Below, piece by piece: positions 1 through 64,000 of a DNA stretch of 64,000 nucleotides (positions within the stretch are counted from its first letter, which is position 1; every line of letters begins with the position of its first letter). The notes beneath the pieces are model-generated. The model was not told the DNA's origin and searched no databases. It saw nothing but the letters and a program-made list of their open reading frames with translations. Where the stretch lies: contig OZ251219.1 of assembly GCA_965240465.1 (NCBI GenBank), forward strand, positions 960,001-1,024,000, written 5' to 3'. Made by a program: the position numbers and the translations under genes. Source of the stretch: a bacterium. Lineage in GTDB: Bacteria > SAR324 > JACQKK01.

Positions 1-1395
1 ATAAGTGGCAGTGGGAAGAGTAGTTTATTGTGGCAGCTACAGGGATTATTGGCTAGTGGTGGGGGTAGGGTTTGGGGTCGTGAGGACAGGTGGGGTGAGT
101 GTCGCTTATGGGAATGGTGGGGAGCAAAAAGATGGGCTAGGCATTGTGGCTTATTGTTTCAAGAGGTCCGCCCGCAATTGTTACGCAGTCGGGTATCAGA
201 AGAGGTGGGTTTGGCAGCTCATTTGGGGGGATTTAGGGGTCGGCGGTGGGAGTGGGCGGTACGGGGGAGCTTGCTCCGATTTGGGCTAGCCAGTTTGTCA
301 CAACGGCGAGTGGGCGATTTGAGCGGAGGTGAAATGCAGAGGTTAGCCTTGGCAGCTTTGTGGGTAGGACGGCATCGGGTATTATTATTGGACGAGCCGT
401 TTTCGCATCAGGATGGTTATTGGCGTAGGCGGTTGGCAGCCGAGATTAAGCATCAAGTGAAGCGAGGATTGGGGGTATTGGTGGCTGAGCATCGGCGGCG
501 GGTTTTGGGTGCTGGGGTGCGATGGATGCATTTATCAGGCGGAGTACTGGGTGAAGGGGAGTTTGCGGTAGATAATAATCAGGCAGTGAGGCGGGTAGGG
601 AATAAGGAGGGCAAGCGGAAATTTATTCGGTCTAGCGGTAGGGATGGACTGAGGATTGATGATTTATGTTTTGGGCATGATGGTGGTCAGCGTTGGGGGC
701 CTTTGAATGCTACCTTAGCGGAGGGAATGATGGTAGGGCTGGCGGGTGCCAATGGCTCGGGAAAGAGTAGTTTGCTAGAAGTATGTTTGGGGTTGCGAGG
801 TCTATTGCGGGGGAGTGTGTACTTGGGGGGGAATGATGTTAGTAGGATGTCAGTGAGGTATCGGGCGAGGGTATTGGGCTGGTTGCCACAGGATACTGAT
901 TTAGCCCTGGGCGAATTAACGGGTCGCTTGGAATTGCAGCGGGTACTGAGATTGGGAAAATGGCAGCTTGGGGGTCGGACGGGTATCAAGCACAGGGTGG
1001 ATGAGTGCTTGGAACGCTTGGATTTGAAAAATGTGGCGGACAAGCCGTTATTGTTATTGAGTGCGGGGGAGCGTCGTCGTTTGGCACTGGCGGCTGCTAT
1101 GGTGCATGGGCCGCGGGTATTGCTCTTGGATGAACCACTGGCAGGAGCTAGCTTGAGTGAAGCAAATAATTTACTGGACTGCTTACGTCAGGCGGTCAGG
1201 GAAGGATGGGTGGGCTGTGTTCTACTGGCTACTCATGATAAAGACTTGTTGCAACCACAAATTGATGGCTGGTGGGTACTTTGGAATCGTACTGGACGCC
1301 TCAATAAAAAATTGGCTACCACCCATCAGCACAAGAACATGGTCTGCGGTCGGCTGCGAGTAGTGAATCTAAACACAGGAGAGAACAGAGTATGA
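1..1395 (+). CDS. ECF-type ABC transporter ATPase with two nucleotide-binding domains (5' truncated by window edge)
   Basis: Frame is open from base 1 (ISGSGKSS, Walker A). Signature LSGGEMQR and Walker B LLLDEP; second domain GANGSGKSS, LSAGERRR, LLLDEP. Overlaps an EcfT-like gene. Confidence 0.8.
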   Translation: MSGSGKSSLLWQLQGLLASGGGRVWGREDRWGECRLWEWWGAKRWARHCGLLFQEVRPQLLRSRVSEEVGLAAHLGGFRGRRWEWAVRGSLLRFGLASLSQRRVGDLSGGEMQRLALAALWVGRHRVLLLDEPFSHQDGYWRRRLAAEIKHQVKRGLGVLVAEHRRRVLGAGVRWMHLSGGVLGEGEFAVDNNQAVRRVGNKEGKRKFIRSSGRDGLRIDDLCFGHDGGQRWGPLNATLAEGMMVGLAGANGSGKSSLLEVCLGLRGLLRGSVYLGGNDVSRMSVRYRARVLGWLPQDTDLALGELTGRLELQRVLRLGKWQLGGRTGIKHRVDECLERLDLKNVADKPLLLLSAGERRRLALAAAMVHGPRVLLLDEPLAGASLSEANNLLDCLRQAVREGWVGCVLLATHDKDLLQPQIDGWWVLWNRTGRLNKKLATTHQHKNMVCGRLRVVNLNTGENRV

Positions 1396-2234
1396 GTACC
1401 ACTAGCACTGACACGGTAACCACGGGATTTCCTCCTCAGGGGGCCTTGGTATGGATGATGTTAGCTTCTGTGTGGGTACTGTTGGTGACTAATTGGGGCT
1501 GGTTGTTGGGAGTGTTGGGGTTATCTTTTTTGTGGGGTTGGTTGCGAGCGTCTATCAAGCAACGTTGGTGGCTGGCAGGGGCTTGTCTTTTAACCACTTG
1601 GAGTTTTGTACTTTCTCAAGGATTGTTTTATCGGGCGGAAGAACTTTCACCGCTATTAGAGCTGCCTTGGCTGGGTGAGGCACAATTGGTGCTATCACAA
1701 GAGGGGGTAGGACACGGTCTTAAGCAGTCGCTCCGCTGGAATGCCCTTTTGCTGCTGGCTGCAGGACTATTGGTACGTTATCATCCTGATAGCCTAGCCA
1801 CAGGATTCCAACAATTGGGACTACCTACCCAAGTAGCTTTCTTATTCTCACTCGCATTGCAATACTTGCCCTGGATAGCCGCAGATACTCTGGCAGTCCT
1901 ACGCATCGCCCGCCTGAGAGGTTGTCAACGCTGGCAGTGGATTGTCATCATGCCCTCTCTCATTCGTTCCCTGATGGCAGCCAATATGAGAAGAGCTGAT
2001 ACCATCACCCTCGCCATGCTCGCCAAAGGACTAACCTCCTTCTCACTCCCTAATTCATGCTCCCCAACTTCTTCCAAACTCTCAGCAACACACAAAATAC
2101 TCCTCTGCAGTACCTCAATACTGGTCACATCCGTAATCGCACTCCGAATGCTACAAACCCTGCTGGAAAGAAAATATCTCAACCCGTCTGAAACCCTCTC
2201 ACTCATTACCTCCTGGCTTGATAAATGGCTCTAA
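1392..2234 (+). CDS. ECF transporter transmembrane component T (EcfT/CbiQ family)
   Basis: Several hydrophobic segments. ARLRG and AMLAKG resemble the X-Arg-Gly motifs of EcfT. Coupled to the ECF ATPase. Confidence 0.75.
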   Translation: MSTTSTDTVTTGFPPQGALVWMMLASVWVLLVTNWGWLLGVLGLSFLWGWLRASIKQRWWLAGACLLTTWSFVLSQGLFYRAEELSPLLELPWLGEAQLVLSQEGVGHGLKQSLRWNALLLLAAGLLVRYHPDSLATGFQQLGLPTQVAFLFSLALQYLPWIAADTLAVLRIARLRGCQRWQWIVIMPSLIRSLMAANMRRADTITLAMLAKGLTSFSLPNSCSPTSSKLSATHKILLCSTSILVTSVIALRMLQTLLERKYLNPSETLSLITSWLDKWL

Positions 2235-2248
2235 TCCCAACCTTAAAA

Positions 2249-3061
2249 TCAATTTGATGTTCCAGATCCGTGGGTATTTATTGACCGTGCAAATTCATCT
2301 ATCATTGGTCTCAGGGTTTTACCTACTCGCTCAAAGCAATCCAGCACTTCTTTGTAGACGGGCTGCTCTAAAGCAAGAAAATTCCAAAAATCTTCTCCCA
2401 CTAATAATTGCTCGTCGCTAAACATGCTCTTTGTAGTCCATCTTTTATAGGGGTCAGGATGGTAAGGATTGTAAGGGATCGCTAAACCAGAAAATGTTTT
2501 TGGCTGCTTTAAGGAAGATGATCCAGCATAATAGCTGGCAATCCACTTTAACGTGTTATGCTTAAGTTTCTCAAATTGATCTATGCTAGGCTTGGCGGTC
2601 TTGATATCCAAAAAATAGGTCTTGTTGTTTCTGTCAACTAGAAATAAATCCACTTTTCTAAGTTTTTTTTTAATTTGAGCTCCTTTATTTCTATTTTTCC
2701 ATAAAGCTTGACATTCTCTTTCTAAATCAGGTTCTTCTTTCTGTTTTTCTAAGTTATTCATAATAACAGTGATTGTTTCCTCGGATTCTTTGCGGATTAC
2801 GGGAGACAGTGTGTGAGAGCATTCAACTCGTTTAAAAAAGGGAAGAGCCACTTGCTTGGCAATTTGTTCAAAAATAGACGTTCCCATCATGGTGTTAACA
2901 GAGTGAATAAATGAAAATAACTTCATACTGTCTTTTCCTATGATGCGATGATGGAATGGCATAATTTTGGTTTCTGGATTGTAATTTTTCAGTTTTTTTT
3001 CTACTGCCTGAATAATGATCTCTTCTATTTTATTCTGTTGCGATTTTACTAGGATGGTCAT
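2249..3061 (-). CDS. Type II restriction endonuclease, TdeIII/MjaII-like family
   Basis: PETKIMPFHHRIIG...FSFIHSVNTMMGTSIFEQIA, a PD-(D/E)xK core (VDLFL...LDIKTAKP) and IPYNPY. Directly downstream of a methyltransferase. Probable ATG at 3061; the ORF track extends to 3127. Confidence 0.8.
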   Translation of the reverse strand: MTILVKSQQNKIEEIIIQAVEKKLKNYNPETKIMPFHHRIIGKDSMKLFSFIHSVNTMMGTSIFEQIAKQVALPFFKRVECSHTLSPVIRKESEETITVIMNNLEKQKEEPDLERECQALWKNRNKGAQIKKKLRKVDLFLVDRNNKTYFLDIKTAKPSIDQFEKLKHNTLKWIASYYAGSSSLKQPKTFSGLAIPYNPYHPDPYKRWTTKSMFSDEQLLVGEDFWNFLALEQPVYKEVLDCFERVGKTLRPMIDEFARSINTHGSGTSN

Positions 3062-3068
3062 CTTTTTA

Positions 3069-4679
3069 TTATTCCGATTGGAGGTGAAAGATGGTCTCGC
3101 TGTAAGCAGATTTATCTCCTTCGGCACGATTCAAAACTGGTCGCTGGTATCGGTTAACGATGTGCATTCTAGCCCGTTCGGCGATGGATGGATATAGCTG
3201 ATAATAATCATTGGCGACTAAGAATACGTGGTGATTTTTTATCATGAAGCGTTTGCAATTTTGTAACACCTTGGCGATGTCCTCCACGTATTTTTCTCGG
3301 GCTTGGCGTGAGCGACCGCCGCTCATGGGCCCGATTTCATCTTTATCACGACGAGAAAAGCCAAACATTTCATAAGCGTAGGCATGCTGCTGGTGATAAT
3401 CAATCATGCCTACATATGGAGGTGAAGAAAATATTCCCTTGATGGGCTTTGATGAGAGTTTGCTTTTTGATAGGCATTCTATCACATTGATGTTGCGTGA
3501 ATCGCCAACAAAGCATTTTTGTATGGTATCGGTACGCAGGCGGGAAAAAGTTTCTAAGCGTTTAATGGTGTCTTCAGCATAGCGATTCCACCATCTATTG
3601 ATGGAAAACAAAGGGTGGCACAACTTGCCATGCTTGCGACAATAGTAAGGCTTGGTGACTGGTTTATTCAAGGTGGCTAGGTCACGGTGGGTGGTTGCTC
3701 TACAAGAACGCAGTGTCCGACTCAAGATTAGCCTTAGCATGTCTCTTATACTAGTGGTGGAGTTGTGGTTAATTTCCTGTATGGCTACCTTTATTTGCTT
3801 TCTGACGCTGGGCAAGCACCAGATATCCAAGAATGATTCACTAGCAGGTGCATAGGGGGGGATGAGGTGTTTTTTCTTGAGGGCATCAAAGCGGGGAAGT
3901 AATTTTTCTAGCTGCTCACTTGAGTATTCAAGGTCTCGGAAAGATCTGTCAGCAAGTTTCTTGCGAAATTGTGGAGAAGGAAAGCATTTTTCATTAACAG
4001 CACTCATCATTTCTGAAAGCTCGGCCTCAAATGCAATGGGAGTCAAGGGAGCAATCACTCGGGCAACCCTAGCCGCCTCTCGCTGTAACTGCGAACCAGA
4101 AATTTCTGTTAGTTTTAGGTTAGCGATCAAGGCATTGAACTCAGAAATTTCTACTCCTAATGCATGCAAACCTATCTCGTTGGCAGCTACCAGAGTAGTG
4201 CCGCTACCGCAAAAAGGATCAAGCACTAAATCGCCACGCCGAAATACAGCCTCTTTCTTGGTATCATCGGTATGCTCATCAAGAAAATATTCTACCAGTT
4301 GAGGAATGAATTTTCCCTTGTATGGATGCAGACGATGCACATGCTTTGTGGTTTGTGTCTCCTTGTATTGAGAAAAAGACAGGGGCTGCAGGGGAAAACT
4401 TTCTTTTCTGGCATAGTAAGCAGATAATTGGTCGGTACGCACAAGCACTCTTTTCTGCTGTTCTATTTTATCTATCAAGCCGTAGGAAATTAGGTAGCTA
4501 ATGTTGGAAGAAGTAATGTCCTTGTCTAAGAGTTTGCTAGCCCATTGACTAGCTTGCTGGATGGTCAGCGTTTGTTCAGCTTGTGACAAGGGTTTTGGTG
4601 ACCCCGCATGGTCTGAATCCAATCCCCTTTTAGAAATAGTATCTTCTACATTTGCTATATCTTGAGGAACCATTTTCAT
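3069..4679 (-). CDS. Amino-DNA methyltransferase (probably N4-cytosine) with N-terminal HTH-like region
   Basis: HRLHPYKGKFIPQLV, SAM-binding motif DPFCGSGTT and catalytic SPPY. Paired with the endonuclease. Confidence 0.85.
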   Translation of the reverse strand: MKMVPQDIANVEDTISKRGLDSDHAGSPKPLSQAEQTLTIQQASQWASKLLDKDITSSNISYLISYGLIDKIEQQKRVLVRTDQLSAYYARKESFPLQPLSFSQYKETQTTKHVHRLHPYKGKFIPQLVEYFLDEHTDDTKKEAVFRRGDLVLDPFCGSGTTLVAANEIGLHALGVEISEFNALIANLKLTEISGSQLQREAARVARVIAPLTPIAFEAELSEMMSAVNEKCFPSPQFRKKLADRSFRDLEYSSEQLEKLLPRFDALKKKHLIPPYAPASESFLDIWCLPSVRKQIKVAIQEINHNSTTSIRDMLRLILSRTLRSCRATTHRDLATLNKPVTKPYYCRKHGKLCHPLFSINRWWNRYAEDTIKRLETFSRLRTDTIQKCFVGDSRNINVIECLSKSKLSSKPIKGIFSSPPYVGMIDYHQQHAYAYEMFGFSRRDKDEIGPMSGGRSRQAREKYVEDIAKVLQNCKRFMIKNHHVFLVANDYYQLYPSIAERARMHIVNRYQRPVLNRAEGDKSAYSETIFHLQSE

Positions 4680-4828
4680 TACAAAAGCCTCCTTGCTTTA
4701 AGAAAAAGTGTTTGCTAAACATCAAACAGTCGCTACGTTTTTCTATCTGCTTATAGCTGTGAGCGTCAATCTTATTAAGCATGCTTTTAAGCTAGGGTAC
4801 TCTTCATTAAAGCAAATTGGTAAGGCTA

Positions 4829-5776
4829 ATGACAGACAAACGTCAACTGGGGCAATTCTTTACCAAGGGAAACCCGTTTGAACTCAAACCATTTATCGCG
4901 TGGGCTAAAACTGCGGGCTTGCAAAAGGCTACGATACTAGAACCATTTGCAGGTGCTAATCACATCATAAAATCGCTTATAAGGACAGAGCAATGCAGAG
5001 AGTTTGCATCCTACGATGTAGCCCCCAAAGATAAAGGCGTTAAACGCAAAGATACCATAAAGCACTTCCCCAAAGGCTATAACGTGTGCATAACAAACCC
5101 GCCCTGGTTAGCCCGTAATTCAGCCACACGGCGAGGACTTGATTATCCTAATACCGAATATGATGATCTGTATAAGCACTGCTTAAAACTATGCCTTGAT
5201 AACTGCAAGTATGTAGCCGCACTTATCCCTGCTAGCTATTTGCAAAGCAGGCTATTCAGGGAGAGACTGCAAAGCTATATCTTACTGCACGATACCATCT
5301 TTGATGATACCGAAAACCCTGTCTGCCTAGCACTCTTTACTGAGGAACCTTGCAACACAACCGCAATATATTATGACAATAACTACATAGATAATCTGGC
5401 AGAATTGGCAAGCTATATGCCGAACAAGTTGGAAATCCATATTCCAGAAAAGTGTGGAAGCAATGCGTTGAGATTTAATGACCCGCACGGCGAACTAGGA
5501 TTCATATCATTTGACAACACCAAGCAGCCATCAATTCGTTTCTGTGAGGTAGAGGAGATAGCCGAATACGCCATTAAAGGCACATCGCGTTTTATTACTC
5601 GTATTGGTGGGGAATTTTCCAACCTACCGAAAACAATAAAACTGCTTAACAAAAAACTTAACGAATTCAGAAAAGATACACACGATATATTTCTCACCCC
5701 ATTCAAAGGACTTCGCCAAGACGGACAGTACCGTCGGCGAATGGAATATACTCTGGCACGGAGGCTTATCAATTAA
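4829..5776 (+). CDS. Putative orphan DNA adenine methyltransferase
   Basis: LGQFFT (motif X), ILEPFAG (motif I) and ITNPPW (motif IV) in gamma-class order. ATG at 4829. Confidence 0.7.
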   Translation: MTDKRQLGQFFTKGNPFELKPFIAWAKTAGLQKATILEPFAGANHIIKSLIRTEQCREFASYDVAPKDKGVKRKDTIKHFPKGYNVCITNPPWLARNSATRRGLDYPNTEYDDLYKHCLKLCLDNCKYVAALIPASYLQSRLFRERLQSYILLHDTIFDDTENPVCLALFTEEPCNTTAIYYDNNYIDNLAELASYMPNKLEIHIPEKCGSNALRFNDPHGELGFISFDNTKQPSIRFCEVEEIAEYAIKGTSRFITRIGGEFSNLPKTIKLLNKKLNEFRKDTHDIFLTPFKGLRQDGQYRRRMEYTLARRLIN

Positions 5777-6377: not shown

Positions 6378-8553
6378 GCGGGAACTCTCCAACCTGCCCA
6401 GGCAAAAACAACCAGCTTGGATATCCAAAAATGCCTCGCCAAAATCTAGTGCATATAAAACAACCTGTGGAATAATCTTGGGTTGTTATCTTTGCCTGTT
6501 CTTATCCAGCGTGTGGGCACAAACAAAACAGGCTAAACCAGAAATAAATCCAACTGAAGAACTAAAGATTGAATCAGCTACTAAATCAGCAGCTAATCTA
6601 GCGGCAGATTCAGAGGTAGAATCAGCCCCAGAATCAGCCCCAGATACAGACCCCAGCCTGCCACCAGAGGTTCTAGTGGAAGCCCCGCCTCAATTGGTTC
6701 GTCCTCGGGGATCACCGCCGATCTGGGGTAGTGATTTTTATGCAGGATCGCGTAGTGTGCTGGAGGTAGACGGGGGAGAGTTATCAGACACCTTGGAGCA
6801 AGCCCCCGGGATTTTGGTAGAGCGTTCAGGAGGGGTACTTTCGCCATCTAGGTTGAGCATTCGGGGTGGTCGCTCGGGGCAAGTACTTGTGCTTTGGGAT
6901 GATGAACTTCTCAATGAGGAACAGCCTCATCCGTCCGTAGTGCTAGGAGAAGATGGAGTAGATTTGAATCGCATTCCCGCAGAGTGGGTGGACTCAGTGG
7001 AGGTAGTCCGAGGAGCCGCGGGGGCGTTATCTGGCTCAGGGATAGGAGGAGTATCGGGGTTGGTGCGATTGCGTTCTAAGCCTCGGTCGGGTTGGGGTTT
7101 CCAAACTACTAAGGGTGAAAATATGGAGGCATGGCAGCTATATGGTAGTACTGCACCCTCAGGACAACAGCTGGCAGTGGTGCTTAATTATCGCCAGAGC
7201 GATGAGGAATACATCTACTACGATGCCCGCCATGCAGCCGGTCAGCGGGGAAATCTCTGTGCTAAAAAACTGGATGGAAATTACTACTTGCGTCGTTGTC
7301 AGCAGAGACGTTTCATCCACAGCCGTTTTGATTGGTCGGCTCCTAATTGGAAACAGCGGTTTGAATGGGATGAAGAAACCCAATCAGGATTAGGAGGAAT
7401 AGCAGACCCCAAACCATATGGATTAAAGCGAGTACGCCGTTGGAAAATTGGTCATCAACAGCAAATATTAGGCTGGAACTGGAATGCTTCCCTTAACTCC
7501 CTGCAAGGAGAACGCGATGAAAATACTCAACTATCTCATCCTGATACAGAAAACCACTGGCAAAATAACAAACTACGCCTGAATACCAAACACCAGTGGC
7601 AACACTTGCCATACCAACTACTCTTGGAGGTAGGCATCAGCCAACAACAACTGCGTGATAAAAAACTAAACGCCCAACGCCAAATTCAATTCGTGCGTCT
7701 GCATACCGAATACCGCAGTCCTCGGGCAACCAGCGAATTATCTCTTAGGCACGACCAACTTGAAGATCAGCAATCCGAAATCACATCAGCTGCTCCAATA
7801 AGACCGCAACAATTATCCAGCACCAGCTGGAGAGCTGCCTCTTCGCTAAAATTTTTTTCTCACGGGGGAATAAAATTTAGTCTGGGTCAAGCTCATCAAC
7901 CACCAGCACTCTATCAACTCTATGACCCCAGCCTGTCACCCGCAGAAAGCCTAGCCAACCCTCTGCTGAAACCAGAGCATTCTTCCTCGCAAGACCTAGG
8001 CCTGTTCTTGCAGTATAATCCACACCTCTATGCCGAATGGATCGCCTTCCAACAAACCATCCGCGATAACATCATCCCCATCGCTAAAGAGGAAAACCCA
8101 ATCCAATTCCGCTTTGAAAACATCCACCAAGTACGCTCCACAGGATCCGAAACCCTACTGGGATGGAGAATCCGTCACACCTACCTAGATGCTTCACTGA
8201 CGAAACTTAAAGCCATCATCCAGAAAAATAACGCCAATGACCCTCGCTACAACGGCAACTTCGTTCCCCAACAACCACAAAAACAACTCAACTTCCGTCT
8301 GGGTAATAAACTTCCCCGCTGGCAAACCGAAATCCGTAGCCGACAAACTAGCCGTCGCTATCTAAACCCTGCCAATACCCGCTTCCTAGTACCATATCGC
8401 CTATACCACCTCCACCTGAGCTTCAAACCTACTCCCTCCTGGAAAATCTCACTCAATATCCGCAACCTCACCAACATAACCTACGCCGAAAGAGAAAACT
8501 ACCCGCCACCAGGAAGACAATGGTTCCTCAACCTCTCATTCCAAAAACCTTAA
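6367..8553 (+). CDS. TonB-dependent outer membrane receptor
   Basis: Plug motifs (LEQAPGILV, SIRGG, VDLNRIPAEWVDSVEVVRG), NPLLKPE, and C-terminal NIRNLTN...PGRQWFLNLSF. Confidence 0.85.
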   Translation: MINERELSNLPRQKQPAWISKNASPKSSAYKTTCGIILGCYLCLFLSSVWAQTKQAKPEINPTEELKIESATKSAANLAADSEVESAPESAPDTDPSLPPEVLVEAPPQLVRPRGSPPIWGSDFYAGSRSVLEVDGGELSDTLEQAPGILVERSGGVLSPSRLSIRGGRSGQVLVLWDDELLNEEQPHPSVVLGEDGVDLNRIPAEWVDSVEVVRGAAGALSGSGIGGVSGLVRLRSKPRSGWGFQTTKGENMEAWQLYGSTAPSGQQLAVVLNYRQSDEEYIYYDARHAAGQRGNLCAKKLDGNYYLRRCQQRRFIHSRFDWSAPNWKQRFEWDEETQSGLGGIADPKPYGLKRVRRWKIGHQQQILGWNWNASLNSLQGERDENTQLSHPDTENHWQNNKLRLNTKHQWQHLPYQLLLEVGISQQQLRDKKLNAQRQIQFVRLHTEYRSPRATSELSLRHDQLEDQQSEITSAAPIRPQQLSSTSWRAASSLKFFSHGGIKFSLGQAHQPPALYQLYDPSLSPAESLANPLLKPEHSSSQDLGLFLQYNPHLYAEWIAFQQTIRDNIIPIAKEENPIQFRFENIHQVRSTGSETLLGWRIRHTYLDASLTKLKAIIQKNNANDPRYNGNFVPQQPQKQLNFRLGNKLPRWQTEIRSRQTSRRYLNPANTRFLVPYRLYHLHLSFKPTPSWKISLNIRNLTNITYAERENYPPPGRQWFLNLSFQKP

Positions 8554-8612: not shown

Positions 8613-8689
8613 GACAGGATGGAGTTTGTATGTTTGTTAAATCTGGTACCATGAAAATATTTAACCTTGATTTTTCACCTTAAAAAAAG

Positions 8690-8975
8690 ATAAGAGAGAA
8701 GAAGCTAGGAGGAAAGAAGATATGAGAGAAGAAGCTAGGAGGAAAGAAACCAGGAGGAAAGAAGGTATGAGGGAAGATATGAGGAAAGAAGATAGGAGGG
8801 AAGATATGAGGAAATCAGATAATAGAAAAGAAGATAGGAGGGGAGATATGAGTAAATCAGATAATAGAAAAGAAGATAGGAGGGGAGATATGAGTAAATC
8901 AGATAATAGAAAAGAAGATAGGAGAAAATTAAATATGAGAAAAGAAAATAGAAGAAAAGGGGAGAAAAGCAGATA
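8690..8975 (+). repeat. Purine-rich degenerate tandem repeat, including 3 copies of a 42-bp unit, upstream of efp
   Basis: GAAGATAGGAGGGRAGATATGAGKAAATCAGATAATAGAAAA at 8788, 8830 and 8872, with related shorter units on both sides. Confidence 0.9.
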
Positions 8976-10083: not shown

Positions 10084-10286
10084 TGCCAGTAATTAGAAAT
10101 ATCCTCAGTAAGATCGGAGTTGCGTTCAAGCATCTTTCATTTTCTACTGAATTGGGTTATAATTGCCAAAGGTAGACGGCTGAGGATAAGCAAAAGGAGC
10201 GGATGAGAAGGTTGGGTGTGGGTGAGAGGAGGAAAAGGTGTGTTCCTCGTGGATGCTAGCATGCCAGCGGGGGTGAGGCAAAAATA

Positions 10287-10516
10287 GGAGGCAGGAACAA
10301 AGGAGGCAGAAGCAAAGGAGGCAGAAGCAAAGGAAGCAGAAGCAAAGGAGGCAGAAGCAAAGGAGGCAGAAGCAAAGGAGGCAGGAACAAAGGAGGCAGG
10401 AACAAAGGAGGCAGGAACAAAGGAGGCAAGAACAAAGGAGGTAGGAACAAAGGAGGCAAGAACAAAGGAGGTAGGAACAAAGGAGGCAAGAACAAAGGAG
10501 GCAGGAACAAAGGAGG
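10287..10516 (+). repeat. 15-bp tandem repeat (GGAGGCAGRARCAAA-like), about 15 copies, upstream of aroA
   Basis: Units read directly from the sequence. Nearly every junction forms AAAGGAGG. Confidence 0.95.
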
Positions 10517-10574
10517 TGTTAGGCGTTAGACGATAGCGATTATCGCTGATTGCGTTTAGGCGAGAAGTGAATAA

Positions 10575-24927: not shown

Positions 24928-25005
24928 TGTCTCACTGGGCGATTGTCTCACTGGGCGATTGTCTCACTGGGCAATTGTCTCATTTGGCAATTGTCTTATT
25001 GGGTA
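24926..25005. repeat. 16-bp tandem repeat (ATTGTCTCACTGGGCR), 5 progressively degenerate copies at the era start
   Basis: Units start at 24926, 24942, 24958, 24974 and 24990. Confidence 0.85.
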
Positions 25006-25224
25006 GCCCTTGACATCCTGAGGCGTATCTTTATTATCCATTTGGCAATGCCTTCAAAGATAGTCTAACATGACCTACTAAGCTATCGCATAGGGTGCAT
25101 GCCTTGAAAAATAATAAAGCCAGCCGAGCTGTTTAGGTATCCTGATCTCAAGAGCTAAATTGCCTCCTGCGGTTGAAAATTGTAGGATGGGGCAGGGGGG
25201 GGGGTTGGTTTAGTTGCTTGGTCA

Positions 25225-25367
25225 ATGGTGCTGAGATGGTGCTGAGATGGTGCTGAGATGGTGCTGAGATGGTGCTGAGATGGTGCTGAGATGGTGCTGA
25301 GATGGTGCTGAGATGGTGCTGAGATGGTGCTGAGATGGTGCTGAGATGGTGCTGAGATGGTGCTGAG
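25225..25367 (+). repeat. 11-bp tandem repeat ATGGTGCTGAG x13, plus degenerate copies to about 25413, upstream of selA
   Basis: Read directly from the sequence. Preceded by a G tract near 25190-25205. Confidence 0.95.
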
Positions 25368-25441
25368 ATAGTACTTAGATGGTATGAGATAGCACTGAGA
25401 TAACACTGAAATGCTCTCCATGAATAAGCCTAGGGCTACCA

Positions 25442-28400: not shown

Positions 28401-28420
28401 AAGGGCAGGGGTAGTAGGGG

Positions 28421-28666: not shown

Positions 28667-28896
28667 CGGCAGGCAGGGAAGCCAAGCCGTCAAGATTTAG
28701 TAAGCGGATGTCGTCTGTGGAATACCAAGGAGGTAGCTCATAAGAGGAGCAAGAATGCCTGCGGCTGAAGATAGGCATCTAGGAGCGGTGGATGGGTACA
28801 TCCCCCGCGGAAAATTAGAGAGGGAGGAAGAGTAATGTGTGTTGACTGTTGGAAAATGTTTGTTAGTAGTTATTAGCCAAGTTTTTGTATTTATAG

Positions 28897-50902: not shown

Positions 50903-50904
50903 CG

Positions 50905-52698: not shown

Positions 52699-52713
52699 GC
52701 ATAAGAATCATTC

Positions 52714-53517
52714 GTGTCTTCATCTGTTACCTTTAACATTTTTCGTGGTCAGCCCCAGACCGATAAAAATAACCGCCCTCTCAGCGGTAGCCAAGGACAA
52801 ATGCGTTCCTACACTACTCCATTGGAAAAGGGAATGGTGGTACTGGATGCAGTCCATGATATTCAGGCCTCCCAAGCCAATGATCTGGCAGTCCGATGGA
52901 ATTGCAAAGCTGGTAAATGTGGTTCCTGCAGTGCTGAAATCAATGGCAAACCTAGCCTAATGTGCATGACCCGTATGGATACTCTTGATACTACCCGCCC
53001 CATTAATCTCACTCCTATGCATCGCTTTCCTCTTATCAAGGACTTGGTTACTGAGGTCAAATGGAACTATGAGGTGGAAAAACGCATCCAGCCCTTCAAG
53101 CCTAGTGCTCCTCACTCAGATGGACGCCATCGCATGGAACAAAAAGATGTAGAACGAATACAGGAATTTCGCAAATGTATTGAGTGCTTCCTCTGCCAAG
53201 ACGTATGCCATGTCTTGCGCGATCATCAGCGTAGAGACTTCATCGGCCCTCGCTACTTGCTTAGAGTTGCCAATCTGGTGATGCACCCACTAGATACAGT
53301 TGACCGCTTAAAAGAACTAAAAGAATCCCAAGGCATAGGATTTTGCAACATTACCAAGTGCTGCACCGAAGTCTGTCCTGAAAATATCCACATAACCGAC
53401 AATGCCATCATCCCTCTTAAGGAGCGGGTAGCTGGACGCTTTTATGATCCTTTAGCAGGACTCTTCCGTATCTTAAGGAAGAAACGCATCCAGCAAAGAA
53501 AAACTGCAAATGTTTAA
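52714..53517 (+). CDS. sdhB: Succinate dehydrogenase/fumarate reductase iron-sulfur subunit
   Basis: NCKAGKCGSC, CIECFLCQDVC and CNITKCCTEVCP. Confidence 0.93.
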   Translation: MSSSVTFNIFRGQPQTDKNNRPLSGSQGQMRSYTTPLEKGMVVLDAVHDIQASQANDLAVRWNCKAGKCGSCSAEINGKPSLMCMTRMDTLDTTRPINLTPMHRFPLIKDLVTEVKWNYEVEKRIQPFKPSAPHSDGRHRMEQKDVERIQEFRKCIECFLCQDVCHVLRDHQRRDFIGPRYLLRVANLVMHPLDTVDRLKELKESQGIGFCNITKCCTEVCPENIHITDNAIIPLKERVAGRFYDPLAGLFRILRKKRIQQRKTANV

Positions 53518-53529: not shown

Positions 53530-54510
53530 CTAAGTTGCAAAGGCCGCTTCATTTCTACTAAATAGCCAGAGGGCTACCATGTTTTTGGGGTCTTGCCAGT
53601 GTTTCTCAATTTGCCAGCCTGATTGCTGGGCCAACTGCTGAACTGATTGGTAGTCGTATTTGTAGGTATTCTCAATATGGATGTCTTCTGATTTTGAAAA
53701 ATTAAAAATTTTATCCAGCACCCGTACACGTTGGGAAAGCAAGCTTACAATACGTATCTCAATACGCTCCAACTCCTTGTTGTAGCGAGCTTGATGAGTA
53801 AATTTTGTAAGGTCAAAGTCAGCGTTAAGCTCGCGGTTAATACGGGTCAAGAGATTGAGACTAAAGCTTTTTGTTATTCCAGCCTTGTCATCATAGGCAG
53901 CCAGCATGGTTTTGGTGTCTTTCTTAAGATCCGTTCCCAAGATGAACAAAGAATTTGCTCCCAACAACTTGCCGGCATTCCTAAGAAAGTTTTGGGCTTC
54001 TAAAGGGAGAAAATTACCAATGGTTGAACCAGGGAAAAATCCCAAATAGCCTTGGCACTCGGGTAGATTGCCGGGTAGGAAGGAAACGTCCGTGAAATCT
54101 GCAGCCAACGGTTTAACCAGAATATCAGGATGTAGGCCATAAAATTTCTTGGCAGAATCTTCTAGAAAATTTCTTGAAATATCAATGGGTATGTAGACAG
54201 ACGGTTCATCCATGGCATCAAGGATGAAACCCGCTTTGCGACTGGCACCACTGCCGAATTCCACTAGTGCTGTTTTGGGCTTGATAAGACGAGTAATATC
54301 CTGGGCGCGAGTACGTAGCAAATCAATTTCCACCCGGGTGAGATAATATTCGGGTGTTTTGGTGATATCCTCAAAGAGTGCTGAGCCTCGTTCATCGTAG
54401 AGAAAGCGAGAGGGTATTTTTTTTGGATCAGCAGACAATCCAGCTAGTACTTCACTGGAAATATCATCTTCTAGGTGATCATCTAATTGGGGCATGGTCG
54501 CAGTTTTCAT
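53530..54510 (-). CDS. egtD: L-histidine N-alpha-methyltransferase
   Basis: YDERGSALFEDIT..PEYYLTR, EFGSG, FPGSTIGN, AYDD and IHIENTYKY. Confidence 0.92.
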   Translation of the reverse strand: MKTATMPQLDDHLEDDISSEVLAGLSADPKKIPSRFLYDERGSALFEDITKTPEYYLTRVEIDLLRTRAQDITRLIKPKTALVEFGSGASRKAGFILDAMDEPSVYIPIDISRNFLEDSAKKFYGLHPDILVKPLAADFTDVSFLPGNLPECQGYLGFFPGSTIGNFLPLEAQNFLRNAGKLLGANSLFILGTDLKKDTKTMLAAYDDKAGITKSFSLNLLTRINRELNADFDLTKFTHQARYNKELERIEIRIVSLLSQRVRVLDKIFNFSKSEDIHIENTYKYDYQSVQQLAQQSGWQIEKHWQDPKNMVALWLFSRNEAAFAT

Positions 54511-55802
54511 GTGAGATCCTTTGCCATTCTTAGTCCGCTAAACATCCATCGTTGCTGGGGATAATAAAAATTACGATAACTCACTCGCATATGATCAGCA
54601 GGAGTAACACAACATCCACCCTTCAAAACAAATTGACCACACATGAACTTGCCATTGTACTCACTCAACATATCTCCTTCGCACTCAAAACCAGGGTAGG
54701 GGCTATAAGGAGATCCAGACCACTCCCACAAGTCACCATACATCTGTAACAGGCTATTTTCGCCAGATTTTACAGCCCGTCCTGCCCGCAATCGACCACT
54801 ATCCACAAAATTTCCTGCTATGGATAAATCTTGAGCAGCAGATTCCCACTCATGCTCTAATGGAAGTCGCTTTCCCGCCCAACGAGCAAAGGCATCGGCC
54901 TCAAAATAGCTTATGTGGCTCACGGGGGCTTCATTATCAATTGCTTGAAGTCCGCACAGGCTCATCTGCTGCCATTGGCCTTCATGTTTTTCCCAATAAC
55001 AAGGGGCACACCAACCCTCACTACGGACCGTCGCGATGCCATCAGACAGCCAAAGAGTAGGATTTCCATAGCCATTGTCCTGCATGAACTCCAACCACTC
55101 CCCATTGGTTACCAAGCGGTTGGCTAAGCGAAACGGACGCAACAGTACTTGATGGCGAGGTTTCTCACAATCATAGGCAAAGGTTGAGTTTTTATTTCCC
55201 GTTTCTGCCCCGACATCATAAATACCGCCCTCAAACTCTAGCCATTCTAGCGGGGGTGCTCCAATATCAGGGGCGGGCAATGGTTTGGGAGCTTGAAAGG
55301 CTGGCTTAATAGGGTTTTGTGCCAGCAGGTGTAGGATATCCATTAACATTAATTCTTGATGCTGCTGTTCATGATGACAGCCGATCTCTAAAAAGCCTCC
55401 GACATCTACTCTTGTTTCTAGCAGCTCTGCCATTGTTTCATCCACTTGGCGGCGATAAGCATAGACCTCCTCTACTGAGGGGCGGGTGATCATTCCGCGG
55501 CGAGAACGTGTGTTGCGAGGCCCTATGGATTCGTAGTATGAGTTGAATAAGAAGGCATAGTTATCATCAACTACGCGGTAGTTGGACAGGTATCTTTTCA
55601 GGATAACAGCCTCAAAAAACCAGGTGGTATGTGCCAAGTGCCATTTGGTAGGGCTGGCGTCGGGCATGGATTGGACTGTCATATCGCTGTCAGAAAGGTG
55701 GCTAGACAGAGCTTCGCTTTGTTGGCGTACTTGTGAGTAACGTTTCAGCAACAGGGATTTTTCGGCGGGTAAAGCAGATGAGCTGGATGGAGCAACAGAC
55801 AT
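54507..55802 (-). CDS. egtB: Ergothioneine biosynthesis sulfoxide synthase
   Basis: QSMPDASPTKWHLAHTTWFFE, HEQQHQEL and an FGE-sulfatase domain. Probable ATG at 55802. Confidence 0.93.
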   Translation of the reverse strand: MSVAPSSSSALPAEKSLLLKRYSQVRQQSEALSSHLSDSDMTVQSMPDASPTKWHLAHTTWFFEAVILKRYLSNYRVVDDNYAFLFNSYYESIGPRNTRSRRGMITRPSVEEVYAYRRQVDETMAELLETRVDVGGFLEIGCHHEQQHQELMLMDILHLLAQNPIKPAFQAPKPLPAPDIGAPPLEWLEFEGGIYDVGAETGNKNSTFAYDCEKPRHQVLLRPFRLANRLVTNGEWLEFMQDNGYGNPTLWLSDGIATVRSEGWCAPCYWEKHEGQWQQMSLCGLQAIDNEAPVSHISYFEADAFARWAGKRLPLEHEWESAAQDLSIAGNFVDSGRLRAGRAVKSGENSLLQMYGDLWEWSGSPYSPYPGFECEGDMLSEYNGKFMCGQFVLKGGCCVTPADHMRVSYRNFYYPQQRWMFSGLRMAKDLT

Positions 55803-56039
55803 AATTATTTCACCAGGATAAATGAAAAGAAAAAGGTAAATTAGGGGGTGCGGGTAAATAAACTTGCTTCGGTCCTGGGATGAGGGTGAATAAGCAATCG
55901 TACACTTAACACTACCAAGAAGCATTCTTTGTAGTAATTTGAATAATGCGGTAGAAGTACTGCGACTATATTATGTTCAACATGGCTTATAAAAGACCGA
56001 TAGATCCAATTTTCTATTAATATCATACCAGTTATATGG

Positions 56040-61972: not shown

Positions 61973-63610
61973 TTAACGGGTGATCTGGGAGTAAAAATTA
62001 TTACCCTTGTCATCAATTACGATAAAGGCGGGGAAGTTTTCTACTTCAATTTCCCATACGGCTTCCATGCCCAGTTCGGGAAAATCCAGTTGTCGCACCG
62101 AGCGAATGTGCTCTTTAGCCAGCAAGGCAGCTGGTCCACCCATAGAACCTAAGTAAAATCCCCCGTACTTTTTACAGGCTTCAATTACCTGATGAGAACG
62201 ATTACCCTTGGCTAACATAATTAAAGATGCTCCTTGCGATTGCAGTATCTCTACATAATCATCCATGCGTCCTGCGGTGGTAGGACCAAAACTACCCGAG
62301 GGGTATCCTTTAGGAGTTTTAGCTGGACCCGCATAATAGATAGGATACTTCTTTAGGTAGGCAGGCAAATCTTGACCGCTCTCCAGTAGCTGGCGAAAAC
62401 GTGCGTGAGCGATATCGCGTGCTACCACCAGCTTGCCAGTTAGGTTCACCCGTGTTTTAACGGGATATTTGCTCAGGATACTTAAGATATTTTTCATGGG
62501 CTGATCAAGACTTATATTGACCGCTAAGGATTCATCTATTTTTACGGATTGAGGCAGAAAACGAGCTGGGTCTTTATCCAGCTGCTCTAAAAAAACACCG
62601 TCTGCAGTGATTTTCCCCTTAATGTTTCTATCAGCACTGCAGCTGACTCCCAGCCCCACCGGTAATGATGCCCCATGACGAGGCAAACGCACCACCCGAG
62701 CACTATGAGCAAAGTACTTGCCTCCGAATTGGGCTCCAATTCCTATTTCACGGGATAATTCTAGCATGACCTTCTCAAATTCCAAGTCCCGAAAGCCATA
62801 GCTATCCTTAGAACTACTGGTGGGGAGCTCATCTAAAAATCCTGCCGAAGCCAGAGTGAGTGTTTTCATGGTGTTCTCAGCACTGGTACCACCAATCACC
62901 AAGGCTAAGTGATAAGGAGGACAAGCCGAAGTTCCTAGCCGACTAATCTGCAATTTTACCCATTTTGGTAGTCGCTCGGGAGATAAAATGGCCATGGTTT
63001 CCTGAAATAGGAGCATCTTGTTGGCAGAGCCACCGCCCTTGGCCATAAACAAAAACCGATATTCATCTCCTGCTGTAGCTAGTAAATCAATTTGTGCTGG
63101 TAGATTGGTGCGAGTATTTTTTTCATCGTACATGGAAAGAGGCACATTCTGTGAGTAACGCAAGTATTCCTGTTGGTAGGTAGTATAAATACCACGGCTA
63201 AGGGCGATGGCATCATCAGAATCAGTCCACACTTGCTGACCTTTCAAGCCAAACACCTTCGCGGTGCCGGTGTCTTGACAGCTAGGTAGCTTGCGGTCTG
63301 CGGCAATCACTGCATTTTTCAGCAGTGCTAGGGCTAGATAATGGTCGTTATCGGAGGCTTCATTGTCATCAAGTATCCGCCGTAGGTCTTTTAGATGCTG
63401 GGTACGGTAGAAATAATTCACCTCACTCAGAGCAGTCTTAGCCAAAATTTCCAGTGCTTTTTCAGAGACCTTTATAATAGGTTGATTTCCAAATTCGGTT
63501 ACAGAGATCCCTTCACGCGTCAAACAGCGATAAGAAGTGCTGTCAGTTTTGAGAGTGTAAAGAGGGGTGTAATGAAAATCCTTGTTAGCAGTAGAAGAAG
63601 AGGCACTCAT
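61973..63610 (-). CDS. fumA: Class I fumarate hydratase (Fe-S)
   Basis: [32 protein letters not shown] and GPTTAGRMD. Probable ATG at 63610. Confidence 0.93.
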
Positions 63611-63692
63611 AGCGGTTACTCCGATAAATGGCAGAGGCTGAAATGGCAGAGTCACGAAATGGCAAGGGATTTTATACCGAGGGTCGGGTTAA

Positions 63693-64000
63693 TTATTTTT
63701 TAATGCCCTGAGTACCAGAAAATCGCTTGCGGATATAAGCACGATATTTCTTGTGCTGAATGATCAGTAAGGAATCTTCTGCTTGTAGGCAGTCTTCTCC
63801 TCGGGGTAGGAAGATTTTTCCATTACGGCAGATCGCCCCTACCAAAACTTCTTTAGGTAGTTTTAATTGATGAAGAGGGATGTTTAGGTAATTCTGACTA
63901 GATTGCAGGCAGATTTCTAGTAATTCAATATCGCTGTTTTCCAAGGATAAATAATTTTGCAAATTACGCCCCCGCAGATATTGTAGGATCTTCATGGCAG
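63693..64000 (-). CDS. TrkA-like potassium transporter subunit, C-terminal RCK_C domain (5' truncated by window edge)
   Basis: PLHQLKLPKEVLVGAICRNGKIFLPRGEDCLQAEDSL. Confidence 0.7.
   Translation of the reverse strand, partial: AMKILQYLRGRNLQNYLSLENSDIELLEICLQSSQNYLNIPLHQLKLPKEVLVGAICRNGKIFLPRGEDCLQAEDSLLIIQHKKYRAYIRKRFSGTQGIKK

What the first reader, a model, noticed from the sequence alone, without database searches (positions are those of the whole stretch)
1..64000. Kilobase-scale sawtooth G/C (keto) strand skew that resets repeatedly, independent of gene orientation
Seen: the + strand repeatedly starts G/T-rich, drifts to C/A-rich over about 2-4 kb, then jumps back. Hand counts in selected 60-nt lines: 61-120 33G/4C vs 2041-2100 2G/24C; 7021-7080 26G/8C vs 8401-8460 4G/24C; 44521-44580 5G/26C vs 45121-45180 22G/7C; 51121-51180 22G/7C vs 52981-53040 5G/22C. 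C-to-G jumps are visible near 2.25, 6.7, 8.6, 10.1, 15.3, 18.2, 25.1, 28.2, 31.1, 34.65, 38.4, 45.06 and 53.5 kb. They fall at convergent, tandem and divergent junctions, and once inside a CDS (about 6.7 kb). The selA/rsgA convergent junction shows no reset. The bias is strong enough to shift amino acids (Gly/Val/Trp-rich vs Pro/Thr/His/Asn-rich). Established: bacterial chromosomes normally have two skew switches, and G+T excess is the signature of deamination on single-stranded DNA. Inference: these may be many origin-like or unwinding sites resembling eukaryotic skew N-domains, or selection for C-rich 3' ends (Rho rut sites) with G-rich 5' ends.
Basis: partly seen in the sequence, partly recalled or inferred. 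Interest (0 to 1): 0.85.

Follow-up and report, generated by a model that had tools for sequence, protein, structure and literature searches.

The report
Transcription-unit G-to-C skew ramp
In this small bacterial genome and its one sister species, almost every transcription unit starts G-rich and ends C-rich on its sense strand, which on one DNA strand looks like a direction-blind sawtooth; the pattern is real, strong, inherited and so far unexplained, but it does not mark extra replication origins.

Summary
All 8 hand counts are exact, all 13 listed C-to-G steps are positive, and 500-bp GC skew has SD 0.20 against 0.067 from sampling.

The "independence of gene orientation" is only apparent. 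The sense strand runs from G-rich at the 5' end to C-rich at the 3' end of transcription units, and such a gradient is its own reverse complement. It is strongest at fourfold sites (skew about -0.04 to -0.33), also shifts amino acids, and extends into upstream non-coding DNA. It stops at stop codons and does not reset at tight operon junctions.

It is genome-wide, and the sister species (1.72 Mb) has it too. It is conserved gene by gene between orthologues whose silent sites are saturated. Sampled stretches of five family or order relatives (SAR324-related) and of E. coli lack it. Independent contigs bridge the jumps.

At silent sites only G and C move (ln ratios about -0.3 and +0.25), while A and T stay flat. 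That looks more like a fixation bias on the transcript's C:G balance, which Rho reads, than a deamination gradient. The cause is not settled. Multiple origins are not supported. This scan has noted similar sawtooths in other uncultured genomes.

The parts
1..2234 (+). Two-gene unit that begins 1115 bp before the window: a duplicated ABC/ECF-type ATPase, then a 280-aa membrane protein. + strand skew runs from +0.53 to -0.31 with no reset at the internal gene junction (1392).
   Evidence: 300-bp skew profile; NCBIfam cbiO/ECF ATPase hits; the orthologue in G001 has the same extreme skew, 0.51 against 0.58.
6600..8553 (+). TonB-dependent receptor gene. The ramp runs from +0.27 to -0.40. The upward step at about 6.7 kb lies inside the ORF, after a repeat-bearing N-terminal extension.
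   Evidence: repeats at 6572-6656. The step is bridged by contigs of two studies.
8683..8959 (+). Purine-rich tandem repeat (15-nt unit containing AGGAGG) upstream of efp. It makes the largest step in the window, 1.13 at 8.6 kb.
10286..12005 (+). AGGAGG-bearing 15-nt repeat leader (10286-10516) plus aroA. Skew runs from +0.55 to -0.03.
25000..26944 (+). G-rich leader with an 11-nt repeat (25225-25401) plus selA. Skew runs from +0.44 to -0.20.
28200..30825 (+). G-rich repeat leader (28417-28666) plus a 642-aa gene of no known family. Skew runs from +0.64 to -0.36.
34694..38215 (-). dnaE. The + strand runs from +0.21 to -0.22 left to right, so the sense strand runs from +0.22 at the 5' end to -0.21 at the 3' end. 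This shows that a minus-strand gene gives the same + strand sawtooth.
43962..45020 (-). holA. The sense strand runs from about +0.41 at the 5' end to -0.11 at the 3' end. The step at 45.06 kb is a tandem minus/minus junction.
50700..53517 (+). sdhA-sdhB unit. Skew is +0.40 over the first 900 bp and falls to about -0.1. The rise starts inside the end of the preceding 249-aa ORF.
54507..55925 (-). egtB, an exception with the opposite slope (+ strand from -0.32 to +0.27). Its G001 orthologue also has a positive slope (0.73 against 0.23).
26941..27960 (-). rsgA, an exception. Its sense strand is G-rich throughout, so there is no reset at the overlapping convergent selA/rsgA junction.
2249..5776 (.). 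Low-GC (34-44%) methyltransferase-like and unassigned genes with nearly flat skew. They are probably recent arrivals that have not acquired the pattern (inference).

Best explanation
Shown: the sawtooth is a polar gradient tied to transcription units. The sense strand is G-rich and C-poor in the leader and the first part of a unit, and becomes C-rich and G-poor towards its last stop codon. Such a gradient is its own reverse complement. Plus-strand and minus-strand units therefore both read 'G-rich on the left, C-rich on the right' on the + strand, with an upward step at unit borders of any orientation.

Inferred: the force behaves like a fixation bias on G versus C of the sense strand or transcript, not like a change in transition mutation rates. 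The only known reader of nascent RNA with this specificity (C over G, indifferent to A and U) and this polarity is the termination factor Rho. My preferred mechanism follows. Leaders and early parts of units are kept Rho-proof (G over C). Late parts are Rho-permissive (C over G). Termination then falls just behind the last stop codon, in a genome where the simple scan found no excess of intrinsic-terminator-like hairpins. Which step selection acts on, and why the ramp stretches with unit length, are not explained.
For: 1. Polarity and unit.
- Sense-strand skew at fourfold sites falls from -0.04 to -0.33 along ORFs.
- For units of 1.2-4 kb it runs from about 0 to about -0.33, whatever the length.
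- At junctions with a gap of 20 bp or less, the upstream gene stays near -0.04 and the step is 0.07. For gaps of 21-250 bp the step is 0.24-0.29.
- In same-strand gene runs of two and three genes, in both genomes, skew falls from the first gene to the last.
- Example: the NiFe hydrogenase small subunit has skew +0.56, and the large subunit that follows ramps to -0.49. E. coli hyaA and hyaB are -0.02 and 0.00.

2. G-versus-C specificity.
- From the first to the last quintile, ln frequency ratios at fourfold sites are C +0.23, G -0.30, A -0.02, T -0.02 in G000. In G001 they are C +0.30, G -0.29, A -0.10, T -0.01.
- The shift is seen in all 8 fourfold codon families and in all neighbour contexts.
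- Differences between recent paralogues at fourfold sites are mostly transitions: C/T 230 and A/G 107 of 507. C/G accounts for only 24 of 507. A change in strand-specific mutation rates should therefore move T and A, which stay flat.

3. Not translation alone.
- Upstream non-coding DNA is G-rich on the sense strand, +0.05 to +0.13 over about 175-250 bp, in both genomes.
- 43% of the slope survives synonymous shuffling, so protein sequence is affected.
- Every fourfold box but Arg has C34, G34 and U34 tRNAs, one gene each but for a second Pro-CGG tRNA in G000.

4. The C-rich tract ends at the stop codon, and skew is about 0 within 25-50 bp in convergent gaps.

5. Terminator-like hairpins are not enriched: 20 found against 20.8 expected, and 28 against 19.9 with sd 5.3.

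6. rho and nusG are present. Rut sites are described as 'C > G-biased' (abstract of PMC13650167, seen in the listing).

7. The force is persistent and locus-specific. In 520 orthologue pairs (897 reciprocal best hits, median 64% amino-acid identity), fourfold mean skew correlates at r = 0.66, fourfold slope at r = 0.46, and all-site slope at r = 0.67.
Against: - A rut site needs roughly 80 nt (recalled). Here the ramp spans 1-3 kb, and its half-way point moves with unit length. Neither a fixed catch-up distance nor a simple 'cost of lost downstream sequence' model predicts that.
- The extremes look like overkill for Rho avoidance: skew +0.5 to +0.65 over 2.5 kb of an ATPase gene, with a protein rich in Trp, Gly, Arg and Val.
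- The pattern occurs in the two reduced genomes and not in the sampled stretches of larger-genome relatives. Weak selection on thousands of silent sites should if anything work better in those relatives (inference).
- The slope is not stronger in the most conserved genes: -0.28 at 80% identity or more, against -0.53 below 50%.
- rho, nusG and mfd do not differ in presence between carriers and non-carriers.
- Bulk DNA varies along a G+T versus A+C axis, the classical single-strand damage signature.
- A similar gradient of opposite sign exists in fungi, which have no Rho (PMC3315797, abstract). Earlier notes of this scan report such ramps in phages and archaea (unchecked).
- No RNA data exist for this organism, so unit borders are inferred from gene spacing only.
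Confidence: 0.35

Rival explanations
1. Transcription-linked strand-specific mutation or repair bias. The non-template strand is damaged or left unrepaired most near promoters (R-loops, high 5' polymerase traffic). The opposite strand dominates towards unit ends, for example through antisense or read-through transcription. The composition simply records the local balance.
For: - The gradient affects silent, replacement and upstream non-coding sites.
- Bulk DNA follows a keto/amino axis, r = -0.40 to -0.50.
- It is found in the two reduced genomes only among those sampled, where repair and regulation often change.
- It is persistent and locus-specific across saturated orthologues.
- Low-GC, probably recent genes are flat.
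- Paralogue differences at fourfold sites show twice as many sense-strand C/T as A/G changes, 230 against 107. That is more than the pyrimidine excess alone predicts, so some transcription-strand asymmetry exists.
- A linear ramp scaled to unit length is what two opposing sources at the borders would give (inference).
Against: - A and T do not move at fourfold sites in any codon family or context, although transitions dominate the substitution flux and C/G changes are 4.7%.
- No skew is seen in non-coding DNA behind stop codons in convergent gaps.
- No candidate gene is lost in both carriers. rho, mfd, RNase HI, mutS, mutL, topA, nusG and a UDG-superfamily gene are present in G000 and G001. 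mutY is missing only in G000. Family-1 ung is absent in all five genomes searched.
Confidence: 0.3
2. Translation-linked selection. Codon choice shifts along genes (a processivity or 'nonsense error' gradient, or a ramp of Shine-Dalgarno-like G-rich codons), with NNC increasingly preferred over NNG.
For: - The gradient is strongest at synonymous sites and ends at the stop codon.
- G-ending two-fold codons also decline, for example Glu GAG share 0.42 to 0.28.
- More conserved genes have more C-rich silent sites, mean -0.16 to -0.18 against -0.07.
- Position-dependent codon selection is an established idea (abstract of PMC13271495 in the listing).
Against: - The gradient does not reset at tight cistron junctions.
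- It extends into non-coding leaders.
- It changes amino-acid composition.
- C34 and G34 tRNAs are present in 7 of the 8 fourfold boxes, single-copy but for a second Pro-CGG tRNA in G000.
- C/(C+T) in two-fold codons barely moves, 0.35 to 0.39 for Asn.
Confidence: 0.08
3. Many origin-like or unwinding sites, or fixed Okazaki start sites, that create replication-type skew domains.
For: - The steps are upward, and the decline between borders is about linear and scaled with unit length.
- Steps occur at all four junction types.
- The period is of kilobase size.
Against: - An ordinary two-arm replication skew coexists with the sawtooth.
- Non-coding skew follows the 5' side of genes and is about 0 in convergent gaps.
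- Tight junctions do not reset.
- No palindromic motif anchors the steps: the largest mean step among all palindromic 4-mers and 6-mers with at least 40 sites is 0.04-0.09, for TA-rich words.
- Tandem repeats at the gap make little difference, 0.20 against 0.18 and 0.76 against 0.67.
Confidence: 0.04
4. Selection for weakly folded mRNA: strong local skew of either sign removes G-C pairing.
For: Windows with high |skew| fold less than codon-resampled controls (r = 0.35-0.41).
Against: On average, native 150-nt windows fold like controls. The differences are -0.89 +- 0.41, +0.29 +- 0.38 and +0.38 +- 0.39 kcal/mol at the 5' end, middle and 3' end of 220 genes. The idea also does not explain the fixed polarity.
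Confidence: 0.03
5. Assembly, binning or amplification artefact.
For: The genome comes from uncultured material, and short-read contigs break at tandem repeats.
Against: - Steps at 2.25, 6.7 and 15.3 kb lie inside single contigs. The 6.7 kb step is also covered by an identical contig from a second study.
- The same pattern occurs in a second closed genome at 64% median protein identity.
- Real annotated genes carry the ramps.
Confidence: 0.01

Closest known systems
[quoted passage not shown]
   Same: Both show an intragenic polar GC-skew gradient with intermediate values mid-gene. In both it affects fourfold sites and amino-acid usage and extends beyond the coding sequence. In both the cause is unresolved between mutation and adaptation.
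   Different: The sign is opposite: fungi are C-biased at the 5' end and G-biased at the 3' end. Fungi are eukaryotes with RNA polymerase II and no Rho. Here the unit is a bacterial transcription unit, the amplitude is large (local skew up to +-0.6), and the 3' bias stops at the stop codon.
Rho utilisation (rut) regions of Rho-dependent terminators (C > G-biased; abstracts of PMC13650167 and PMC6144790 seen in the listing)
   Same: Both show the same base specificity (C over G, with A and U indifferent), act on the sense transcript, lie upstream of the place where transcription must end, and follow transcription-unit logic.
   Different: Rut sites are short tracts (about 80 nt, recalled), usually in untranslated RNA. 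Here a graded bias covers whole units of 1-3 kb and sits inside translated sequence. No termination data exist for this organism.
Transcription-associated strand asymmetry (non-template strand G+T excess; reviews PMC10030826 and PMC3269016, seen in the listing only)
   Same: In both the asymmetry follows the direction of transcription, is present at silent and non-coding transcribed sites, and shows G+T richness of the sense strand near promoters in bulk DNA.
   Different: The known form is a constant or decaying excess of one sign attributed to C-to-T deamination. Here the sign reverses within the unit, and T does not change at fourfold sites.
Replication skew jumps at origins and human skew N-domains (recalled; bidirectional asymmetries at CpG islands, abstract of PMC2817419 in the listing)
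   Same: Both show an upward step followed by a roughly linear decline to the next step, with reverse-complement symmetry.
   Different: The scale is kilobases rather than hundreds of kilobases to megabases. The borders behave like promoter-bearing gaps, and convergent gaps carry no non-coding skew. A normal two-arm replication skew exists besides.
Position-dependent codon bias (selection against processivity or nonsense errors; abstracts of PMC13271495 and PMC2777431 in the listing)
   Same: Both show a monotonic 5'-to-3' change of synonymous codon choice.
   Different: The known effects are weak and act per cistron. Here there is no reset at tight cistron junctions, and non-coding and amino-acid effects are present.

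Membership tests
Replication origin / skew N-domain border | The skew step is independent of flanking gene orientation and is maximal in neutral DNA at the site. | tested here: not met
   Non-coding skew is about 0 in convergent gaps of 200 bp or more, and about +-0.1 only on the 5' side of genes. At fourfold sites the step is 0.67-0.76 at convergent junctions against -0.01 to 0.03 at divergent ones.
Replication origin / skew N-domain border | A recurrent sequence element lies at the step. | tested here: not met
   All palindromic 4-mers and 6-mers with at least 40 sites were tested in both genomes. The largest mean step is 0.04-0.09, for TA-rich words. Non-palindromic motifs were not scanned.
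Replication origin / skew N-domain border | Replication initiates there. | not testable with these tools
   This needs nascent-strand or coverage data from growing cells. Only contigs were available.
Rho-dependent terminator (rut region) | A C > G-biased sense transcript lies upstream of the termination zone. | tested here: met
   The last 300 bp of units have fourfold skew -0.26 to -0.38. The bias ends at the stop codon.
Rho-dependent terminator (rut region) | The tract is short (tens of nt) and untranslated or ribosome-free. | tested here: not met
   The bias is graded over 1-3 kb and lies within coding sequence.
Rho-dependent terminator (rut region) | Termination depends on Rho. | not testable with these tools
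   rho and nusG are present, but no RNA holder was listed.
Transcription-associated deamination asymmetry | The asymmetry follows the direction of transcription. | tested here: met
   Sense-strand profiles are the same for both orientations. An offset for leading against lagging genes is separate.
Transcription-associated deamination asymmetry | Loss of C is matched by gain of T (and A-to-G changes) at neutral sites. | tested here: not met
   At fourfold sites T goes from 0.308 to 0.303 and A from 0.244 to 0.240, while C goes from 0.239 to 0.302 and G from 0.210 to 0.156. The same holds in every family and context.
Fungal-type intragenic opposite GC skews | Skews at the 5' and 3' ends are of opposite sign, also at fourfold sites. 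| tested here: met
   Relative to the mid-gene value, the ends differ by about +-0.15.
Fungal-type intragenic opposite GC skews | The 5' end is C-biased and the 3' end G-biased. | tested here: not met
   The sign is reversed here.

The most novel reading that the evidence does not exclude
Transcription units in this genus are punctuated by composition instead of terminators. The C:G balance of the nascent RNA is tuned along each unit, so that Rho is excluded from leaders and early genes and is increasingly recruited towards the last stop codon. This would be a genome-wide, graded 'Rho clock'. By reverse-complement symmetry it treats sense and antisense transcripts alike, and so insulates every unit from both sides.
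Probability: 0.22. Interest if true: 0.85.

Novelty: new variant of a known kind. Interest (0 to 1): 0.7.

Why it matters
Strand asymmetry in bacteria is normally read as a replication signal with a small gene-orientation term. Here a transcription-unit term dominates. It is four times the sampling noise and larger than the replication term. It reshapes codon use and proteins, and it has been kept in two species whose silent sites are saturated.

If it is selected through Rho, it would show that termination and polarity can be encoded as a composition gradient over whole operons. That would matter for predicting operons in uncultured bacteria and for recoding genes.

If it is mutational, it is a natural record of which DNA strand is exposed where along a bacterial transcription unit. 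It would need a damage or repair process that swaps G and C without moving A and T, and none is described.

There are also practical consequences:
- GC-skew-based origin finding, and inference of gene inversions from local skew, would be misled in such genomes.
- C-poor strands favour spurious antisense ORFs. The two most C-rich long ORFs looked spurious.

Tried and rejected
- Candidate gene losses. rho, mfd, RNase HI (PF00075), mutS, mutL, topA, nusG and a UDG-superfamily gene are present in G000, G001 and the three relatives searched (G008, G009, G004). Family-1 ung is absent in all five. mutY is missing only in G000, yet G001 shows the pattern. None explains the lineage specificity. Many other genes were not tested.
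No palindromic 4-mer or 6-mer anchors the steps.
- Tandem repeats as the anchor. Steps are similar with and without a repeat at the gap.
- mRNA folding. There is no net difference from codon-resampled controls.
- RNA evidence. No RNA holder was listed, so unit borders, antisense RNA and 3' ends could not be seen.
- Polymorphism. The only second-study holder (X3) was identical over the parts it covered, and runs are kept as contigs. No frequency spectrum could be made.
- Polarised substitutions from multi-copy gene families. Only 91 fourfold singletons were obtained, from C-rich families. They are stationary and too few to split by position.
- Wrong-strand ORFs as the source of 'C-rich genes'. 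Only 23 of 1206 ORFs score as antisense-like, about 1 of 688 among those of 300 codons or more. Of the 16 most C-rich ORFs, 11 have solid Pfam matches in the called frame, and the top two look spurious.
- Literature. Four searches found no description of such a gradient in bacteria. The library holds open-access papers and bioRxiv only, and supplements were not consulted.
- Gene calls are my own longest-ORF calls of 100 aa or more, with the first ATG, GTG or TTG as start. Starts may be too far upstream, and units are inferred from spacing.

Full report
**What is there**

All 13 listed C-to-G steps are positive when 400 bp on each side are compared, and 8 of the 13 exceed the window's 95th percentile (0.32). 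Within +-300 bp, 12 of 13 reach 0.33 or more; only 53.5 kb is weak. The selA/rsgA junction has no reset.

Genome-wide, GC skew in 500-bp windows has SD 0.202 against 0.067 expected from sampling, and 13.7% of windows exceed |0.3|. Upward steps above 0.4 outnumber downward ones, 94 to 39. A segmentation with free slopes gives 168 strongly falling against 56 strongly rising segments, and 109 against 28 large upward against downward jumps. GC and AT skew are anticorrelated, r = -0.40.

**Not an artefact**

Contigs of run X1, possibly the source sample, cover 1-8727, 8901-10294, 10473-18331 and 18515-20000 with no difference. They break only at tandem repeats. A low-depth contig of a second study covers 3411-8841 identically. 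The steps at 2.25, 6.7 and 15.3 kb therefore lie inside contigs.

The ramps sit in ordinary annotated genes: ECF-type ATPase, TonB-dependent receptor, aroA, selA, dnaE, holA and sdhA.

My ORF calls are crude, but only 23 of 1206 look antisense-like, about 1 of 688 among long ones. Of the 16 most C-rich ORFs, 11 have solid Pfam matches in the called frame.

**Why it looks independent of orientation**

Read on the sense strand, skew falls from the 5' end to the 3' end:
- Position 1 falls from 0.27 to 0.09-0.17, position 3 from +0.10 to about -0.15, and fourfold sites from -0.04 to -0.33.
- Of 949 ORFs of 600 nt or more, 72.4% have a negative slope, with mean -0.166. The sign test gives p = 7e-46.

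A sense strand that is G-rich at the 5' end and C-rich at the 3' end reads, after reverse complementing, again as G-rich on the left and C-rich on the right. Plus and minus genes therefore give the same + strand sawtooth, for example dnaE and holA on the minus strand. Upward steps appear at tandem, convergent and divergent junctions alike.

**The unit is the transcription unit, not the gene or an anonymous DNA domain**
- At junctions with a gap of 20 bp or less, the upstream gene stays near -0.04 and the step is only 0.07. With gaps of 21-250 bp the step is 0.24-0.29.
- For units of 1.2-4 kb, the fourfold skew runs from about 0 to about -0.33 whatever the length.
- In same-strand runs of two and three genes, first genes are the most G-rich and last genes the most C-rich, in both genomes.
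- Examples: the ATPase plus membrane-protein pair at 1-2234; the NiFe hydrogenase small subunit (+0.56) followed by the large subunit (down to -0.49); atpG late in its cluster (-0.39).
- Non-coding DNA is G-rich on the sense strand for about 175-250 bp upstream of starts (+0.05 to +0.13). Behind stop codons the skew returns to about 0 within 25-50 bp in convergent gaps, and turns positive at once in tandem gaps.

**Lineage and persistence**

The one same-genus genome (G001; 1.72 Mb, 52% G+C) has the same features. Its SD is 0.200, 71.5% of its 1096 ORFs have negative slopes, and its fourfold C and G move by ln +0.30 and -0.29.

The sampled stretches of relatives do not show it. G008 (140 kb), G009 (120 kb), G004 (66 kb), G013 (40 kb) and G020 (20 kb) have SD 0.05-0.10 and no gradient. 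The same holds for 50 kb of E. coli K-12, with SD 0.072 and fourfold quintiles 0.11 to 0.20. Family relatives carry record titles naming the SAR324 cluster. Their genomes are 2.3-5.2 Mb.

Between G000 and G001 there are 897 reciprocal best hits with median 64% amino-acid identity, so silent sites are saturated. Among the 520 pairs of 300 codons or more:
- Fourfold mean skew correlates at r = 0.66.
- Fourfold slope correlates at r = 0.46, with sampling noise of 0.35 in a total SD of 0.53.
- All-site slope correlates at r = 0.67.

Extremes and exceptions (egtB) are shared. The force is therefore persistent and tied to the locus.

**What kind of force**

Shuffling all codons within genes abolishes the slope (-0.015). 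Shuffling only synonymous codons leaves -0.074 of -0.172, so both codon choice and protein sequence carry it.

At fourfold sites only G and C move. In G000, A goes from 0.244 to 0.240, T from 0.308 to 0.303, C from 0.239 to 0.302, and G from 0.210 to 0.156. This holds in all eight codon families and all neighbour contexts.

Differences between recent paralogues at fourfold sites are mostly transitions: 337 of 507 (C/T 230, A/G 107). C/G accounts for 24 of 507. A shift of strand-specific transition rates, the deamination reading, should move T and A. A reciprocal log-shift of C and G with A and T untouched is what a fixation bias on G versus C would give (inference).

The tRNA set gives no reason for a translational preference. 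C34, G34 and U34 tRNAs are present for 7 of 8 fourfold boxes, one gene each but for a second Pro-CGG tRNA in G000. Predicted mRNA folding does not differ from codon-resampled controls.

**Mechanism**

The known reader of nascent RNA that prefers C over G, ignores A and U, and acts with transcription-unit polarity is Rho. Rut sites are described as C > G-biased (abstract, PMC13650167).

In favour of Rho:
- Leaders and 5' parts are G-rich.
- C-rich tracts end at the stop codon.
- Operon-internal genes lack C-rich ends.
- Terminator-like hairpins are not enriched: 20 against 20.8 expected, and 28 against 19.9.
- rho and nusG are present.

Against Rho:
- The ramp is kilobases long and stretches with unit length.
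- The extremes distort proteins.
- The trait occurs in the reduced genomes rather than in their larger relatives.
- It is not stronger in conserved genes.
- Gradients of the opposite sign exist in fungi without Rho (PMC3315797).

I therefore give a Rho-type fixation bias 0.35 and a transcription-linked mutation or repair bias 0.30. Translation-linked selection gets 0.08, origin-like sites 0.04, folding 0.03 and artefact 0.01. The rest is unassigned.

**Origins**

A normal two-arm skew is present, with cumulative minimum near 608 kb and maximum near 1562 kb. Leading-strand and lagging-strand genes differ by about 0.2 at fourfold sites, while both show the gradient: +0.06 to -0.23, and -0.20 to -0.41. 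Convergent gaps carry no non-coding skew. No palindrome anchors the steps, and tandem repeats at gaps make little difference. The multi-origin reading is not supported.

**Comparison and novelty**

The closest published pattern is the fungal intragenic skew, which has the opposite sign. Four literature searches found no bacterial description.

Earlier notes of this scan report gene-anchored or unit-anchored skew sawtooths of either sign in other uncultured bacteria, archaea and phages (unchecked by me except for the motif lead and the folding point). The phenomenon may therefore be widespread but undescribed.

I class it as a new variant of transcription-associated strand asymmetry.

Noticed in passing
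window 8683-8959, 10286-10516, 28417-28666, 25225-25401: Long tandem arrays sit directly upstream of plus-strand genes (efp, aroA, a 642-aa gene, selA). Three have 15-nt units that contain AGGAGG, with 13-19 copies. One has an 11-nt unit with 16 copies. They are Shine-Dalgarno-like and GGA-rich, so they may be ribosome standby or regulator-binding arrays.
   Followed up: partly
whole genome G000: Tandem Repeats Finder (score 50 or more) marks 105,414 bases, 6.6% of the genome. Of these, 22% lie outside ORFs, which make up 11% of the DNA.
   Followed up: partly
whole genome G000: There is no gene-strand bias. Taking the cumulative-skew extremes as origin and terminus, 475 ORFs lie on the leading strand and 474 on the lagging strand.
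   Followed up: no
G000:C1:255696-273200: An intact RNase HI gene is followed by four C-terminal RNase H fragments with in-frame stops, at about 3.3-kb spacing, inside an array of diverged repeats at 75-98% identity. Genome-wide, 281 repeat pairs of 500 bp or more share 80% identity or more, including three tandem copies of about 3 kb at 1379484-1388489.
   Followed up: partly
window 15320-16336 (-): A single ORF matches RNase HII over residues 5-196 and the YraN family over residues 223-337, an apparent fusion.
   Followed up: no
window 18208-18885 (-): The ORF that matches ribosomal protein S16 is 225 aa, while the S16 model covers about 78 aa. The extension holds a 15-nt repeat with 16 copies at 18305-18542.
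   Followed up: no
G000 and G001 whole genomes: mutY was found in G001 and in three relatives but not in G000, where only an Nth-like weak match appeared. Family-1 ung was not found in any of the five genomes, while a UDG-superfamily gene is present in all.
   Followed up: no
G000 and G001 whole genomes: The tRNA set is large for a 1.6-Mb genome, with 44 and 43 genes. Seven of the eight fourfold boxes have C34, G34 and U34 isoacceptors, and tRNA-Sec is present. This may be needed because genes swing between G-ending and C-ending codons.
   Followed up: no
window 2249-5776: A block of 34-44% G+C holds a methyltransferase-like gene and unassigned ORFs, with almost flat skew. It is probably a recent acquisition, such as a restriction-modification system.
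   Followed up: no
whole genome G000: CpG-containing palindromes are rare compared with others of like composition: TCGA 473, CCGG 1140 and ACGT 1596, against TGCA 5790 and GTAC 5030.
   Followed up: no
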